In this document: piece after piece, positions 54,001 to 60,000 of the stretch
Layout of the letters: every line of letters begins with the position of its first letter
Position numbering within the stretch: position 1 is the first letter of the stretch
Assembly (NCBI GenBank): GCA_964464605.1
Contig: CAYXJN010000003.1
Location: 62,001 to 126,000, forward strand
DNA length: 64,000 bases
Origin: an uncultured Ignavibacteriales bacterium
GTDB taxonomy: Bacteria > Zixibacteria > MSB-5A5 > GN15 > FEB-12
Direction: 5' to 3'
Position numbers: made by a program

Positions 54001-57000
54001 CGAATGGAAAGAATCAAAAGCAGAATGTGAATTCAGCTATGCGCTTGATGGCGCAGCACTGACGATCAATTATCATGGTCAGTATATGGGAGCGCCGTTT
54101 AACGGCCAGGGGATGCAGTGCTGGGATCGCTTCAACAAACAATGGCAGATGGTCTGGGCGGATGACATGAGCGCGATGATGGTCATGTATACTGGCAAAA
54201 CAGAGGATGGTAAAACAGAGTTTATTGCCAAAACCGACATGATGGGGCACCCCTATTGGGCGCGGATTACCATGTCAAATGTAACTCCGACCAGCTACGA
54301 CTGGACATATGAAGATTCGATGGACGGCGGCAAAACGTGGAATCTGTCTGTCAAATCGAAGTATACGAAGCGGCAGTAATTGCACACATCTTATAAAATT
54401 TCCCTATAGACCTTCTTGGTAAGCCTTGCCTTACCAGGAAGGTGATTTATGGATCGAATATTAAAAGGAGGCAAGCATGTCAAATGATTCTTTCGAATGG
54501 ATAAAATTCATCTCCACTATCGTTGTAATAGGCGGAGGTATCATTGCTGCCTTTAAGGCAATCAGTGAAATGCAGCAAAAACGGCGACAAGAAAACACCG
54601 AGTACAAATGGAAACGAGCGAAAGAGGCATTCGCTATTATCGACGAACTTCTGACAGATCCATTAGCGAGTAAAGCACTCATGATATTGGATTGGAGCCG
54701 TGAACACACATTGCCCGATGGTGCGAAGGTGACTATAGGTGCAAGTGATCTGCCAGGCGCTTTACGAACCTCGGACTTGAGATTCGACGAAAAAGAAATT
54801 TATATCCGAGATTGTTTCGATAGTTTTTTTGGCTATACAGAAAGAATCGAACATGCGCTGCAAATCGATTATGTAGATTTTAACGCGATTAGCTTTCCGC
54901 TTAAGTATTATGTTAAGATCCTCGCCCAAAAAAAACAAAGTATTACTCAATATTTGAACACATATAGCTATACCAGATCACTCGAATTGCTCAATCGATT
55001 CGATAATTGGCAAACGGCTGCATAACAGGGGACAAAAATATTCAAAGCCGGCTGTTGCGGCCGGCTTTGTGGATGGGACCTTAGGAAGGGAAAACACTCG
55101 TGGGATCGAGTGAGCACAAGAACATCGTTGCTCATTAAGCTGGTATGAGAGAAACGTAAAACTCTCGTAAAAACCATCACATTACTGCATCACAGGTTCA
55201 TTTTTTACAATACAGGCACACGAGTATGCTTTTTATTCAACACATTGACATGACGGCTTGGCGGATTCGATAACATATTGAATGGCAATGATTTAGCGGT
55301 GCTGGCCATTCAACCGATGTAATAACAGTATGTGATAGTAGACAGAATAAAAACGGCGTTATATCATGCAACAAAGCTGCGATTGATTCGTCAAGATAGA
55401 CACTAACCAATACATAACAGAACACACAGAAGGAGATTAGACCCATGAGCCACCCAATCGTGCACTGCGAAATCGGCTGTAAAAACAGCGAAAAGCTAAA
55501 AGACTTCTATGCCGACCTCTTCGGGTGGGGCTTCCAGAGCTACGGCAACGCCCAGATGTTCGACACTCAAGTCAAAGAAGGCATGCCCGGCATCAACGGT
55601 CATATCAACGCCCTCGGTCACGAACCGCACAACTATGTCATTGTCTATGTCCAGACCGATGACATTGAAGCGAGCCTGAAAAAAGTAGAATCACTCGGCG
55701 GCAAGCGGATGATACCGAAAACCGAAGTTCCGACAATGGGACATTTCGCCTGGTTTACTGATCCGGAAGGAACGATGGTCGGCCTCTGGACGCCGATGCA
55801 GCAAGGCTAATGGTAGAAGATAGTGATTATGGAAATCCGGTTCACGAAAGTGAATCGGATTTTTTATTGTTCGATCAATTCCCGAATGCGGTCAGCATCG
55901 ATCGGTAAGCGGGCATCGAACGTAAAGTCCCGCACCTCACCTGACTTCCCGACAATGACCAACAACGGAAAATTCTGAACATGATGCCTGCTCATGAACG
56001 TAAACGCGGTATCGGAATAAACCGGAAACGTCAGATTATTTTTTTTGCGGTAGTACAACACATCATGCGGTTTGTCTGGTGAAATACCGACGACTTTGAC
56101 GTCGGACAATTCGGACACATACGCTCGCTCTAATTTGTCTGTCATCTCTTTACAGGGCGGGCAAGCGAGATCCATAAAGACAACTACGCCACCGGTACCG
56201 GCAAGCAATGATTGCGATTGGACATTTGTGCTCGCTTCATCGATAAGCGCAACATCCGGAAACAGTACGCCCGGTTTTAAGTCTGATTGCGGGGCGTTGG
56301 CGTCGTATTCAGAACTGTTTTCCCCAGTGAGTTTGCTTCCCATACCTAATTTGACGCCAACGAAGGCGGTACCCAGGACAAGCACCATGAAAAGTGCGTA
56401 TTTGAAAAATGAACGGACAGTGAGGTTCGACATACTGGTATTCCTATGTGCTTAAACGTTCTGTAGTACTCTTATCATGAAGGCGGAAAAATCAGAATCC
56501 TTTCTTTCCGCCTTCCAATCCTTGAACACAATACCTTCCTACTGTGAGGAACAAGTACCGTTTAGCAGGTGATAATGGCCAAACACTTAATCTTGCTCGT
56601 CCAAGTGCAGGTAGTAACGCCGTTATTGACACAACAGCGAAGCGGAGCACCGGTGCAAGAACAGGTGTAATAGCAATTTGTGGCTTCGACCTTTTCAGAA
56701 GTCGTAAAGCCGATGGCAAATGCCGCCGCGAAAACGAGTGCAATTGCCGCCAACATCTTTTTCATGTAATCACCTCATTGTTACAATAGTTCAAAACTCT
56801 ACACTAAGTGAGACTATTCTCCCTTAGCACCAGTAGGCCAACGGACATTGGATAACGTTTGTCGGCTTGCAGGTCGTGACGCCATTGTTTACGCAACAAT
56901 ACCGCCCGCCATTACACGGAGTGCAGGTGTAATAACAATTAGCCGCTTCGACTTTACTGTTCGACGTAAAGCCGATGGCAAACGCCGCAGCGAAGACAAA

Positions 57001-60000
57001 TGCTAATGTCGCTAATACCTTCTTCATGTAACCATCTCCTTATGATTGGTTAGTGCAAAGTTCTGCTTCATACGGAACCCCCGTTTTAGCAGTTGTATAC
57101 CTGCGGACATTCGAATCCGGTAGCTTTCTTACAGGTCGTCACGCCATTATTGACGCAGCAACGAAGCGGCTGGCCCGAACAGGAACAGGTATAGTAGCAG
57201 TTAGCTGCGTCGGCTGTGTTGTTGGAGCTATAGCCAACAGCAAATGAAGCCGCAAAGACAAACGCCATTACGCCCAGCAATTTCTTCATGATGTTTCACC
57301 TCCTTTCCCGTCTGTAGTCTATGCCCTCCCCCCATTTTCAGGCAAGTTTATTTTCAACTTTGGGTTACAATTGCGATAGAGCGGCACGGTCTAAACCTAT
57401 TGCACTACGGTTTGGTAAAGATTATCTTGTGAACCGAATGGATATGGTAACTGTTTCATTGATAAGAGATTGCATTTCCCCTTCGGGATGGAGGATACTA
57501 TGAGTGACGGAATAGACATCAGAGGTTATGACTACGTCGAGTTCTATGTCGGCTCGGCCAAGCAGTGGGCGTATTGGTTTTCCAAGGTCATGGGGCTGGA
57601 AATTACCGCCTATTCCGGACCGGAAACCGGTGTTCGGGATCGGGTCTCCTATTTACTCACCAGCCACCGCCTGAAATTTATCGTTACATCGGCCGTACAG
57701 CCGAACTGCTACGACGTAATGAGTTTCGTGAGCAAACATGGCGACGGCGTCAAGCGTTGGTCAGTAGAAGTTGACAACGTCGAAAAAGCCTTCAAAGCCG
57801 CTACCCGAAACGGAGCGGTGATGGTGACCCGTCCGTACCGGATGGAAGACCACAACGGCTATGTCGAAGAAGCGGCGATCCGGTTGTACGATGACACCGA
57901 AATGGTATATGTCAACCGTTCGAATTATCGTGGCACCTTCCGCCCCCGTTTCTGCAAACCGCTTCAGGAATTCACGACTGATCATCATGAAACCGGGCTT
58001 TTAGCGGTCGACCATGTCGTCGGCAACGTGCGTGAAAATGAAATGAATTTGTGGGCGGATTATTTCAACCGCACCATGAACTTTGAAACGTTTGTTGATT
58101 TCAAGGCAGGCGATATCGGCACCAAATACTCCGCGCTCTTGTCCAAAGTGGTCCGCACCAAGGACAGCGCGATCCGCAATCCGATCAATGAACCGTTCGA
58201 AGGTTTGAAAAAATCGCAGATCGAAGAGTTTATCGAACAGTATCAGGGTTCAGGCGTACAGCACATTGCTATTCGCTCGAACAATATCGTGAAAAGCATC
58301 GAAGCGCTGCGCAAAAACGGCGTGCAGTTTTTAACGGTGCCGGATACGTACTACGACATGCTACGCAAACGCACTGATATGAAAATCAACGAAAATATCG
58401 ACGATTTGCAGCGGGAAGGGATTCTCTGCGATATCGAGGGGAACGGCTACTTATTGCAGCTGTTCACGAAACCGATCGGAGATCGCCCGACCTTTTTCTT
58501 TGAAATTATCCAGCGGGTCGGTGAAAGCCACGGCTTCGGTAAAGGAAACTTTCAGGCATTGTTTGAATCGATTGAACTCGATCAAAAACTGCGCGGGAAC
58601 CTTGAACATAACGCCGAAGAAGTTATGCCCCCGTGTTAAGCAGCAAAAAAAGTCAGGAGGAATAAAATATGCCGTTTTATCATCGTTTAGGCGAAATGCC
58701 GCGGGTGAAGCATACCACCTTCTACAAGAAGGATGGGCAGTCCCTCTACCGCGAAGAATTGTTCTCCAGCAAAGGTTTTTCCGGAGTCTATTCAAATAAA
58801 TACTGGATTCATCCCCCGACTCAGGTGCTCAGTGCTAAAGAAATCGGCAATGCGCCGAATGTCGACTGGCCCGATGCGCCAGTGCTGTATTTCCATTTTT
58901 TCACCGATGAATTGAAATCCGGTGGTAACTTTATCAACGGCCGCAATACCTTCTTGCGTAACCCGCACTGTGTTATTGCAACAGCTATCGTGACGGAAGA
59001 TACACCTGATTTTTATCGCAATGCCTATGGCAGCGAATATGTGTTCGTGCATCATGGTACCGGCACATTCATGAGTGAGTTCGGCCACATTCCGTTCGAG
59101 CCGGGTGACCAGTTTATTATTCCCCGTGCGGTCACTTATCAATTCAAATTTGATGACTACAAGAGCCGCAATAAGCTGGTGTTCGTTGAATCTGACACTG
59201 CCTACGAAATTCCCGCCCGCTACCGTAACGAATACGGTCAGCTTGAGGAACACGCGCCGTATTGCGAACGTGATCTGAAAGTTCCGCAGGAGCTTCGTCC
59301 GCATGAAGAACATGGCGAGTTCCGGGTAATTGTCAAAGCCGGCAGCAAGCTGTTCGAGCATATCGTCCCGAATCACCCCTACGGCGTGGTCGGTTGGGAT
59401 GGATTCTTATATCCGTTTGCGCTGAATATTCGGGATTATCATCCGAAAGTCGGGCGTATTCACCTTCCGCCGCCGACGCACCTGTGCTTCAAGACGGCGC
59501 ATTTTATTATCTGTAATTTCGTGCCGCGTCCGTACGACTTTTATCCGACCGCTATTCCGGCTCCGTACTATCACTCCAATATCGACAGTGATGAAGTGCT
59601 GTACTACGTCGAAGGGGACTTTATGTCCCGTACCGGCGTGAAAGAAGGTTCGATTACCCTGCATCCGGGCGGCATGCCCCACGGTCCGCAGCCGGGACGC
59701 ACCGAGGCCTCTATCGGCGCCAAAGAGACGAATGAATTCGCCCTAATGATCGACACCTATGCCCCGCTGCGTCCGACTATCAACGTCCAGAAGACATTGG
59801 ATAAAGGATACGCGCAGTCATGGCTCGACAAAGAAATGGTTCGCGTTTAATGACTGATAGGCCCCAAAAACCGGTGAAGGCTCCGGGGTATATTGAAAAC
59901 CTCGTTCCCTACAAAGCTGGCAAACCGATTTCGGAACTCAAGCGGGAAAAAGGACTGAAAGATGTCGTCAAACTCGCTTCGAACGAAAATCCGTTTGGGC

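What a model noticed while it worked through the whole genome (the two positions that open the first line are those of the whole stretch)
55864..57289. Tandem genes for secreted 8-cysteine mini-proteins paired with a dedicated membrane thioredoxin
Three tandem 67-codon genes (g00808-g00810) encode signal peptide plus a ~40-residue mature peptide with eight conserved cysteines (NCYYTC-C...CCVNNGVTTC...C....C) and a variable C-terminal third, directly next to a membrane-anchored thioredoxin-fold protein with a CPPC site (g00807). I read them as a new family of disulfide-knotted secreted peptides (bacteriocin- or signal-like) whose folding or immunity depends on the linked thiol-disulfide oxidoreductase. 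No Pfam/NCBIfam/Swiss-Prot family covers them, so they would be a new class of ribosomal, Sec-exported cysteine-rich peptides from an uncultured phylum.
Evidence so far: No row in pfam.tsv, ncbifam.tsv, swissprot.tsv for g00808-g00810; the three are 55-63% identical. Found in 16 of 61 sampled Zixibacteria genomes, in 1-3 copies, scattered over three families. In 5 of 5 fetched loci of other genomes the peptide gene is followed within about 250 nt by a homologue of g00807 (36-41% identity); the four peptide frames printed from those loci keep all eight Cys.
(Added by a program. Inside this text positions count along the whole contig: contig position 62,001 is position 1 of the stretch shown here. 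"Call 12" and the like, gene names such as g00115 and contig names such as C1 are that model's own, and its searches are not shown. The text may have been shortened before it was handed on; [...] marks where a part breaks off. The agent that wrote the report below was given it as the finding of a first reader that could run no searches.)

Follow-up and report, generated by a model that had tools for sequence, protein, structure and literature searches.

The report
Secreted eight-cysteine mini-proteins with private thioredoxin
Three tandem genes encode small exported peptides held together by four probable disulfide bonds, and the next gene encodes a membrane-anchored thioredoxin-like enzyme that seems made to handle them, a pairing not described before that recurs in two little-known bacterial phyla.

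Summary
Three 67-codon genes (57086-57289, 56824-57027, 56562-56765, minus strand) encode a Sec signal peptide plus a 39-residue peptide with 8 Cys. A 189-aa membrane-anchored CPPC thioredoxin-fold gene follows (55864-56433).

- **No known family or fold.** No Pfam or NCBIfam model reaches its cut-off, no solved fold matches, and my searches found no paper.
- **Rare.** 56 cluster representatives among 1.84 billion proteins.
- **Distribution.** 30 of 285 genomes of the window's phylum, and 21 of 208 of a second phylum.
- **Linkage.** In 39 of 39 assessable loci the thioredoxin gene follows on the same strand.
- **Disulfides.** Cys numbers are even in 73 of 75 parsed members. The third and last Cys are lost together.
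- **Binding.** A complex model scores 0.81 (best control 0.10). It puts peptide Cys53 at the CPPC site.
- **Wider pattern.** A sister clade of the thioredoxin sits beside other secreted Cys-rich peptides.

Best reading: a disulfide-braced exported mini-protein with a dedicated thiol-disulfide exchange catalyst. The direction of catalysis and the peptide's biological role (antimicrobial, inhibitor, signal) are not shown. I rate it a new variant of a known kind.

The parts
57086..57289 (-). Peptide gene 1: 28-residue Sec signal peptide (cleavage after ADA) plus a 39-residue mature peptide with 8 Cys
   Evidence: ORF. Family alignments. AF2 models. Partner chain in the complex model.
57296..57305 (-). 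Shine-Dalgarno sequence (AAGGAGGTGA on the minus strand) 6 nt before the start of peptide gene 1. Similar sites precede genes 2 and 3.
   Evidence: Read directly from the sequence.
56824..57027 (-). Peptide gene 2: paralogue in which the third Cys is shifted by one residue (C-x2-C instead of C-x-C)
56562..56765 (-). Peptide gene 3: paralogue with a hydrophobic C-terminal tail
56479..56515 (-). Hairpin with a 13-bp stem, 46 nt after the stop of peptide gene 3 and before the thioredoxin gene. Here it lacks a T-tail. The equivalent hairpins in 15 of 28 loci carry a T-rich tail like an intrinsic terminator.
   Evidence: Fold (MFE -35.7 kcal/mol, z -2.8). Hairpin survey.
55864..56433 (-). Thioredoxin-fold oxidoreductase of the TlpA/ResA/StoA type, 189 aa, with an N-terminal membrane anchor and an extracytoplasmic domain
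   Evidence: Pfam, NCBIfam, PDB sequence match to StoA, alignment A4, tree.
56344..56400 (-). Codons 12-30 of the thioredoxin gene: the single hydrophobic membrane anchor
   Evidence: Read from the translation. The segment is hydrophobic in the orthologues too.
56152..56163 (-). Codons 91-94: the CPPC active site
   Evidence: C91, P93 and C94 are invariant in 20 orthologues. These residues touch peptide Cys53 in the complex model.
57290..57469 (.). Intergenic region shared with the divergent 4-hydroxyphenylpyruvate-dioxygenase-like gene. It presumably holds the promoter of the peptide genes.
   Evidence: There is one sigma-70-like match at 57450-57421 on the minus strand, which is no more than the shuffled sequences give. 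No Rfam match.

Best explanation
The three genes encode Sec-exported mini-proteins of about 39 residues. In their final form these are cross-braced from end to end by four disulfides on a small three-stranded beta-sheet. The gene behind them encodes a membrane-anchored, periplasm-facing thioredoxin-fold enzyme. It acts directly on these peptides by thiol-disulfide exchange at its CPPC site: it grips the conserved GVTTC strand of the peptide along its cis-proline loop and attacks, or is attacked by, the sixth Cys. The peptide is made in excess and the enzyme in catalytic amounts, because of strong ribosome-binding sites and a hairpin or terminator between the peptide and enzyme genes. The enzyme's nearest characterised relatives are low-potential reductants fed by CcdA. 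The genome has CcdA/DsbD but no detectable DsbA, DsbB or VKOR. I therefore think proofreading or shuffling of wrong disulfides (isomerase) is the most likely task, with oxidase a close second. The product is a stable extracytoplasmic mini-protein. Its conserved half is the scaffold and the enzyme-recognition site. Its variable C-terminal loop and tail carry the specificity for an outside target (antimicrobial, inhibitor or signal).

Shown: the genes, the family, the linkage, the Cys parity, and purifying selection. Model-supported: direct binding at the active site. Inferred: the direction of catalysis, export beyond the periplasm, and the biological role.
For: **Linkage.** The thioredoxin gene follows the peptide gene(s) on the same strand in 27 of 27 assessable loci of the window's phylum; 2 further loci are cut by a contig end. 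The same holds in 12 of 12 loci of a second phylum. No other neighbour is conserved: the flanks are differing housekeeping genes.

**Reverse test.** Of the 30 other genomes whose thioredoxin match is E<=1e-23, 28 hold the peptide.

**Tree.** A clade of 44 thioredoxins (support 100/99) has 40 rows next to 8-Cys peptides. Its sister clade of 10 rows lies entirely next to other secreted Cys-rich peptides. Together 50 of 54 rows are peptide-linked. The same peptide filter finds only 20 ORFs in the 2.82-Mb genome.

**Complex model.** ipSAE is 0.81, 0.81 and 0.82 in three runs, against a best control of 0.10. The runs agree in at least 94% of contacts and the partner's pLDDT is at least 81. In calibration 116 of 157 solved complexes and 2 of 215 mismatched pairs reached the mark. 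The interface covers enzyme residues 88-94 (CPPC), 153-157 (cis-Pro loop) and 172-175, and peptide residues 44-45 and 47-55. Peptide Cys53 lies against C91 and C94.

**Disulfides.** Of 77 distinct members, 61 have 8 Cys, 11 have 6, and 1 has 10. Only 1 has an odd number. All 11 six-Cys members lack both the third Cys and the C-terminal Cys.

**Fold.** AF2 gives a three-stranded sheet with mean pLDDT 83.5 for the mature part.

**Expression logic.** The Shine-Dalgarno sites are strong. A perfect hairpin stem of at least 9 bp lies between the peptide and thioredoxin genes in 25 of 28 loci, against 26 of 140 control pieces. 15 of the 28 have a T-rich tail.

**Selection.** 19 of 22 substitutions in a related strain are synonymous. 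Between the three paralogues, dN is 0.08-0.30 in the core and 0.48-0.99 in the tail.

**Redox setting.** The best solved relative is StoA, also CPPC, with Em -248 mV and electrons supplied by CcdA (PMC2665060, passages). A CcmG-like protein that is both reductase and isomerase is on record (PMC5909903, start of abstract). The own genome has 2 DsbD_TM/CcdA hits and no hit to DSBA, Thioredoxin_4, DsbB or VKOR.
Against: There is no experimental datum of any kind. The complex model is the model's own confidence. Thioredoxin-substrate complexes have been solved, so part of the pass may come from likeness, and my own alignments were not part of the calibration.

The enzyme family's characterised members are reductants. 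That fits a thiol-based function for the peptide as well as it fits an isomerase.

The phylum is presumably diderm (an assumption, not tested). A Sec signal would then only take the peptide to the periplasm, and no outer-membrane export route is linked.

Two thioredoxin orthologues (L168 and L169, from genomes 58% and 76% complete) have no peptide gene upstream. Two further rows of the clade (L188, L189) also have none. Six-Cys paralogues in two genera lie alone, with no thioredoxin within 3 kb.

The window's own hairpin lacks a T-tail. No fold match supports a knot. No immunity gene is present, which a self-targeting bacteriocin would need.
Confidence: 0.6

Rival explanations
1. The peptides work as thiols, not disulfides. 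They would be a periplasmic or released Cys-rich peptide that binds metals or metalloids, scavenges oxidants or shuttles electrons. The TlpA-like enzyme, fed by CcdA/DsbD, would keep it reduced.
For: The enzyme's nearest characterised relative is a low-potential reductant supplied by CcdA. The genome has CcdA/DsbD but no DsbA, DsbB or VKOR hit. The mature peptide is 20% Cys, with C-x-C and CC motifs.
Against: Cys numbers are even in 73 of 75 parsed members, and Cys are gained or lost in pairs. Metal binding does not require that. Aromatic residues are conserved and a three-stranded sheet is predicted with confidence. The three paralogues have been kept with diverged tails, which is unusual for a housekeeping buffer.
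Confidence: 0.15
2. The peptides are bacteriocins and the thioredoxin is the producer's immunity protein. It would reduce, and so disarm, any folded peptide in the producer's own envelope. The peptide would oxidise and become active only outside the cell.
For: The reductant-type family. A two-gene module with no other candidate immunity gene. Direct binding is supported by the model. The genes are tandem and diversified.
Against: Net charge varies from positive to negative across the family (sequences), unlike most pore-forming bacteriocins. No activity data exist. Thioredoxin-type immunity has no precedent that I know of (recalled, not searched).
Confidence: 0.1
3. The adjacency has no functional meaning. 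The thioredoxin would serve another substrate, such as cytochrome c or a copper centre, and the peptides would be unrelated small secreted proteins.
For: TlpA, ResA and CcmG proteins usually serve such pathways (recalled). Four rows of the clade lack a peptide neighbour.
Against: The linkage holds in 39 of 39 assessable loci in two phyla, although all other neighbours have turned over. Sister-clade enzymes also sit beside Cys-rich peptides. The genome has two other Thioredoxin_8 proteins, one of them 2.4 kb from a CcdA-like gene. The complex model scores 0.81 against 0.10 for the best control.
Confidence: 0.04

Closest known systems
Bacteriocin loci with their own thiol-disulfide oxidoreductase: pediocin PA-1 with PedC (PMC4919988, start of abstract seen in the listing); EntV, which needs disulfide formation (PMC6606811, title and start of abstract); sublancin with BdbB (recalled)
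   Same: A ribosomal, exported, disulfide-bonded peptide is encoded next to a thioredoxin-fold helper that serves it.
   Different: Those loci are in Firmicutes. Their peptides have one or two disulfides, and the loci carry immunity and transporter genes, usually with double-glycine leaders. Here there are four probable disulfides, a plain Sec signal peptide, a bare two-gene module, other phyla, and no sequence similarity between the peptides.
StoA, ResA and TlpA: membrane-anchored extracytoplasmic thioredoxin-fold reductants (PDB 3erw; PMC2665060, passages)
   Same: The same fold family (Pfam AhpC-TSA, Thioredoxin_8 and Redoxin over cut-off), an N-terminal membrane anchor, a CPPC site as in StoA, and a conserved cis-proline.
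   Different: Scores against the NCBIfam StoA and ResA models are 30 and 29 bits, against cut-offs of 210 and 170, so it is not an orthologue of either. Its partner is a small secreted peptide, not a cytochrome or a spore-cortex factor.
Helicobacter pylori HP0377, a CcmG-like protein that is a dithiol reductase and an isomerase (PMC5909903, start of abstract)
   Same: It shows that a protein of this fold family can shuffle disulfides, which is the activity I propose.
   Different: HP0377 is a general periplasmic enzyme and is not paired with a peptide gene. No close sequence relation was tested.
Animal and plant disulfide-rich mini-proteins (conotoxins, knottins, defensins) folded by protein disulfide isomerases (background; PMC6275033, start of abstract)
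   Same: A conserved signal peptide and Cys framework, variable loops, several paralogues, and dependence on a thioredoxin-fold catalyst. The six-Cys subfamily has the C-C-CC-C-C spacing.
   Different: No sequence or fold match to any of them. Knotted connectivity has not been established. The organism is bacterial and the catalyst is encoded beside the peptide.
Pfam DUF6520 (PF20130)
   Same: Small secreted proteins. All three peptides give weak matches (E 0.006-0.025).
   Different: The scores of 15-17 bits are under the 25.4-bit cut-off, and an unrelated ORF of the same genome scores alike. The peptides are not members.

Membership tests
TlpA/ResA/StoA-like extracytoplasmic thioredoxin-fold oxidoreductases | Thioredoxin fold detected by the family models | tested here: met
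   AhpC-TSA 49.8 bits (cut-off 26), Thioredoxin_8 40.6 (27), Redoxin 31.7 (26.6).
TlpA/ResA/StoA-like extracytoplasmic thioredoxin-fold oxidoreductases | CxxC active site and conserved cis-proline | tested here: met
   C91, P93, C94 and P156 are invariant in 20 orthologues. The site is mostly CPPC, with CDPC, CSPC and CEPC variants.
TlpA/ResA/StoA-like extracytoplasmic thioredoxin-fold oxidoreductases | N-terminal membrane anchor or signal that places the domain outside the cytoplasm | tested here: met
   There is one hydrophobic segment at residues 12-30, with none later (translation). The same holds in the orthologues. Topology itself is inferred.
TlpA/ResA/StoA-like extracytoplasmic thioredoxin-fold oxidoreductases | Low redox potential and electron supply from CcdA/DsbD | not testable with these tools
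   The genome holds 2 DsbD_TM/CcdA hits. No link to this enzyme can be shown.
StoA or ResA orthologue (NCBIfam NF041202, NF002854) | Score over the curated cut-off | tested here: not met
   30.4 bits against 210, and 28.6 bits against 170.
Pfam DUF6520 | Score over the gathering cut-off | tested here: not met
   15.4-17.4 bits against 25.4; 13-19 bits in the genome scan.
Inhibitor cystine knot (knottin) | Six Cys in the C-C-CC-C-C framework | tested here: met
   The six-Cys members show C-x3-C-x7/8-CC-x4-11-C-x5-7-C. The eight-Cys members have the same six plus a pair.
Inhibitor cystine knot (knottin) | Knotted I-IV, II-V, III-VI connectivity | not testable with these tools
   Model coordinates are not given. 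Only the pairing of the third and last Cys is inferred, from their joint loss.
Inhibitor cystine knot (knottin) | Fold similarity to solved knottins | tested here: inconclusive
   No knottin was listed. Best Foldseek E is 1.8 and 3.0. Best VIA Z is 2.1 and 3.1. The recurrent weak rows are fibronectin type I modules.
Class II bacteriocin locus | Adjacent immunity gene and dedicated transporter or double-glycine leader | tested here: not met
   No conserved third gene within 8 kb on either side in 14 genomes. The leader is a Sec signal peptide with an AxA site.
Class II bacteriocin locus | Antimicrobial activity | not testable with these tools
Metallothionein-like metal-binding peptide | Cys-rich, few aromatic residues, no fixed fold without metal, no constraint on Cys parity | tested here: not met
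   Two aromatic residues after the first Cys are nearly invariant. The sheet is predicted with pLDDT 83.5. Cys numbers are even in 73 of 75 members.

The most novel reading that the evidence does not exclude
Two candidate phyla of the FCB group would carry a conotoxin-like superfamily of Sec-exported mini-proteins with 6, 8 or 10 Cys on a fold not yet seen in solved structures. Each lineage of peptides would be tied to its own clade of a TlpA-like enzyme. In cells without DsbA, DsbB or VKOR this enzyme would be the private oxidase-isomerase. The unit would then be a portable two-gene oxidative-folding module that yields extracellular binders with a hypervariable loop.
Probability: 0.3. Interest if true: 0.78.

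Novelty: new variant of a known kind. Interest (0 to 1): 0.62.

Why it matters
Disulfide-rich mini-proteins are prized as stable scaffolds for drugs and probes, and almost all known ones come from animals, plants and fungi. A bacterial family with four disulfides in 39 residues, encoded next to the enzyme that handles it, offers a ready-made two-gene system for making and studying such peptides. It also bears on how bacteria without the usual DsbA/DsbB machinery form or correct disulfides outside the cytoplasm. Finally, it gives a first handle on secreted effectors of two uncultured phyla that occur in sludge, bioreactor and rhizosphere metagenomes.

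Tried and rejected
- **Weak family hits.** DUF6520, NCD3G and Phr_nterm are all under their cut-offs.
- **Word-indexed protein search.** Only 6 hits. The profile search found more.
- **Fold searches.** Both AF2 models were searched with Foldseek against PDB and with VIA-align wide. 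Nothing was significant. The best Foldseek E-values were 1.8 and 3.0 and the best Z-scores 2.1 and 3.1. Neither a knot nor a new fold can be claimed from this.
- **ESM Atlas.** Best score 0.81, below the useful range.
- **Pattern scan of genome contigs.** Only 6 loci were real members. This scan therefore gives no taxonomic range.
- **RNA evidence.** No RNA holder is listed. One run of guessed RNA type holds contigs that cover only 56511-57299. This is not evidence of expression.
- **Rfam.** No family.
- **Promoter scan.** No more sites than in shuffled sequence.
- **GC content.** No anomaly.
- **dN/dS between the paralogues.** Synonymous sites are saturated, so only dN can be compared.
- **Conserved third gene.** An ABC exporter pair with an inositol monophosphatase lies beside the module in two genera, but not in the window or in most loci.
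- **Literature.** Searches found no paper on this family. Six motif strings gave 0 papers. About 1.7 million PMC articles are not searchable, and no supplements were read.

Full report
**What is there.** On the minus strand lie three 67-codon ORFs (57086-57289, 56824-57027, 56562-56765) and a 189-codon ORF (55864-56433). The three small genes form a tandem repeat with a 262-nt period. Each is preceded by a strong Shine-Dalgarno sequence, for example AAGGAGGTGA at 57296-57305 (read). Each product has a lysine-rich N-terminus, a hydrophobic stretch and an AxA site. A 39-residue mature part follows, with Cys spacing C-x3-C-x-C-x6-CC-x7-C-x7-C-x5-C, and the last residue is Cys. The copies are 57% and 55% identical to the first and 40 of 61 identical to each other. 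Synonymous sites between them are saturated. Non-synonymous divergence is 0.08-0.30 in the core and 0.48-0.99 in the C-terminal 14 codons. The duplications are therefore old, and the tails have diverged while the core was kept. Contigs of a related strain differ at 22 positions inside the three ORFs, and only 3 of these change a residue. The genes are real and under purifying selection.

**The neighbour.** The 189-aa protein has one N-terminal hydrophobic segment and then a thioredoxin-fold domain. The domain passes the Pfam cut-offs of AhpC-TSA, Thioredoxin_8 and Redoxin. Against NCBIfam it resembles StoA and ResA but scores far below their cut-offs. Its best match among solved structures is B. 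subtilis StoA, which shares the CPPC site. In 20 orthologues the C-x-P-C site and the cis-proline are invariant.

**No known family for the peptides.** Nothing in Pfam or NCBIfam reaches a cut-off. DUF6520 scores 15-17 bits against 25.4, and an unrelated ORF of the genome scores alike. A profile of 22 members, run against 1.84 billion representatives, found 56 proteins at E<=0.001 and 25 at E<=1e-10. AF2 predicts a three-stranded antiparallel sheet, with pLDDT 74.7 for the precursor and 83.5 for the mature part alone. Neither Foldseek nor VIA-align found a significant match in the PDB. The best Foldseek E-values are 1.8 and 3.0, and the best Z-scores are 2.1 and 3.1. The only recurrent rows are fibronectin type I modules, at Z 2.5 and rmsd about 1 A over 27-29 residues. 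My literature searches found no paper on the family, and six motif strings occur in no searchable paper.

**Distribution and linkage.** In the window's phylum, 29 of 284 other genomes hold a full-length match at E<=1e-7, in three families. One locus was fetched per genome. In 27 of the 29, a homologue of the thioredoxin follows on the same strand after 58-176 nt. The other two loci end at a contig edge. One real member turned up in a record labelled Candidatus Krumholzibacteria. In that genome's phylum, 21 of 208 genomes match the profile, and 12 of 12 fetched loci have the same arrangement. Within 8 kb on either side in 14 genomes, nothing else is conserved. The flanks are housekeeping genes that differ between lineages. 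The GC content of the module matches its surroundings. Searching in the other direction, 30 other genomes have a thioredoxin match at E<=1e-23, and 28 of them hold the peptide. In G058 and G152 (58% and 76% complete) the gene upstream is something else.

**A wider pattern.** Weaker thioredoxin matches in other genera (E 1e-22 to 1e-10) turned out to sit next to other small secreted Cys-rich peptides with 4 to 10 Cys. This holds in 12 of 19 loci, mostly in the order enzyme then peptide, sometimes with several peptide genes in tandem. The same crude filter finds 20 ORFs in the whole 2.82-Mb genome, so chance does not explain the adjacency. In a maximum-likelihood tree of 62 thioredoxins, the enzymes beside 8-Cys peptides form a clade of 44 rows (support 100/99). 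Four rows of that clade lack a peptide neighbour. A sister clade of 10 rows lies entirely beside other Cys-rich peptides. Together 50 of 54 rows are peptide-linked. Six of the eight rows outside have no peptide. None of three further peptides tested has a Pfam family. Six-Cys relatives in two genera lie alone among housekeeping genes.

**Are the Cys paired?** Of 77 distinct members, 61 have 8 Cys, 11 have 6, 1 has 10 and 1 has 7. One is truncated and two could not be parsed. All 11 six-Cys members lack both the third Cys and the C-terminal Cys. Even numbers, and gain or loss in pairs, are what structural disulfides predict. They are not what metal ligands predict. They also point to a bond between the third and last Cys. 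What remains is the C-C-CC-C-C spacing known from cystine knots, but a knot is not shown.

**Does the enzyme touch the peptide?** I folded the extracytoplasmic domain (residues 45-189) with the mature peptide, each as an alignment. The score was 0.81, 0.81 and 0.82 in three runs, against 0.01, 0.01 and 0.10 for the controls. The runs agree in at least 94% of contacts and the partner's pLDDT is at least 81. In the calibration, 116 of 157 solved complexes and 2 of 215 mismatched pairs reached the mark. The interface is the canonical substrate groove of thioredoxins: the CPPC loop (88-94), the cis-proline loop (153-157) and residues 172-175. On the peptide side it covers the CC pair and the strand 47-55. 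That strand holds the most conserved non-Cys motif, GVTTC, and Cys53 lies against C91 and C94. Thioredoxin-substrate complexes have been solved, so part of the pass may be likeness. It supports binding but does not show it.

**Expression logic.** A strong hairpin lies between the last peptide gene and the enzyme gene. In the window it has a 13-bp stem (MFE -35.7 kcal/mol, z -2.8). A perfect stem of at least 9 bp is present in 25 of 28 loci, against 26 of 140 control pieces, and 15 of the 28 have a T-rich tail like an intrinsic terminator. This fits an abundant product with a read-through catalytic helper. No RNA run on record holds the locus.

**Direction of catalysis.** StoA has a midpoint potential of -248 mV and is thought to receive electrons from CcdA (PMC2665060, passages). 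A CcmG-like protein that is both reductase and isomerase is known (PMC5909903, start of abstract). The own genome, 100% complete by markers, has two DsbD_TM/CcdA hits. It has none to DSBA, Thioredoxin_4, DsbB or VKOR. VKOR occurs in 13 of 285 genomes of the phylum, and six of those 13 are peptide holders. I therefore favour an isomerase or proofreader, with oxidase next; from memory, some proteins of this fold are oxidases. The rival, that the enzyme keeps the peptide reduced for a thiol-based role or for self-protection, cannot be excluded.

**Role of the peptide.** This is inferred only. The peptide is braced from its third residue to its last. Its scaffold is conserved and its loop and tail are variable. 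It is kept in up to three diverged copies, and it is an accessory trait. All this points to a stable binder acting outside the cytoplasm. Net charge varies in sign across the family. There is no immunity gene, so a classical self-targeting bacteriocin is not the obvious fit.

**Verdict.** This is a new variant of a known kind (exported disulfide peptide plus dedicated oxidoreductase). It has a new peptide family, a dedicated enzyme clade, and a wider superfamily behind it.

Noticed in passing
window 57470-61007 (+): Three genes lie divergent from the peptide genes: a 4-hydroxyphenylpyruvate-dioxygenase-like gene (two Glyoxalase domains), a homogentisate-1,2-dioxygenase-like gene (HgmA_N and HgmA_C) and a class I/II aminotransferase. 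This looks like a tyrosine-degradation operon that needs oxygen.
   Followed up: partly
window 10779-11111 (+) and 45537-45812 (+): Two more small ORFs with a signal peptide and many Cys (13 and 9) and no Pfam family. The genome has several others (C1:344700, C1:72873, C5:219707, C7:72365), although no DsbA, DsbB or VKOR was found.
   Followed up: partly
window 56511-57299: In one small run whose type is only guessed to be RNA, the contigs that match cover just the three peptide genes. They start 10 nt before the first start codon and stop at the foot of the hairpin. They are about 95% identical to the window. This would fit a transcript, but it is not evidence of one.
   Followed up: partly
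L170-L175 (genomes G059, G064, G065, G069, G070): Six-Cys relatives of the peptides lie alone among housekeeping genes, with no thioredoxin within 3 kb. The five genomes are of the two genera that also hold the 8-Cys module; in G065 itself (70% complete) neither the 8-Cys peptide nor the thioredoxin was found.
   Followed up: partly
L168 (G058) and L169 (G152); L188 and L189: Members of the peptide-linked thioredoxin clade that have no peptide gene beside them. L169 has CEPC instead of CPPC.
   Followed up: partly
13 genomes of the phylum, e.g. G059:C23:169504-169845: Most VKOR-domain matches lie in long open frames of 447-685 aa (one lies in a 272-aa frame), which suggests a fusion protein.
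   Followed up: no
L154, L163-L166: A pair of half-size ABC exporter genes and an inositol monophosphatase gene lie beside the module in two genera of different families. They are absent from the window.
   Followed up: partly
window 54477-55025 (+): A 182-aa ORF with no Pfam match, between a DUF1579 gene and a glyoxalase-family gene.
   Followed up: no
L095/L096 and protein P0062: A Bacteroidetes MAG contig gave 17-26 pattern matches in a long tandem array, read in a Cys-rich off-frame. Separately, a 294-aa database protein carries five repeats of a unit that begins with a motif like the peptide's start. Both look like repeats unrelated to the family.
   Followed up: no
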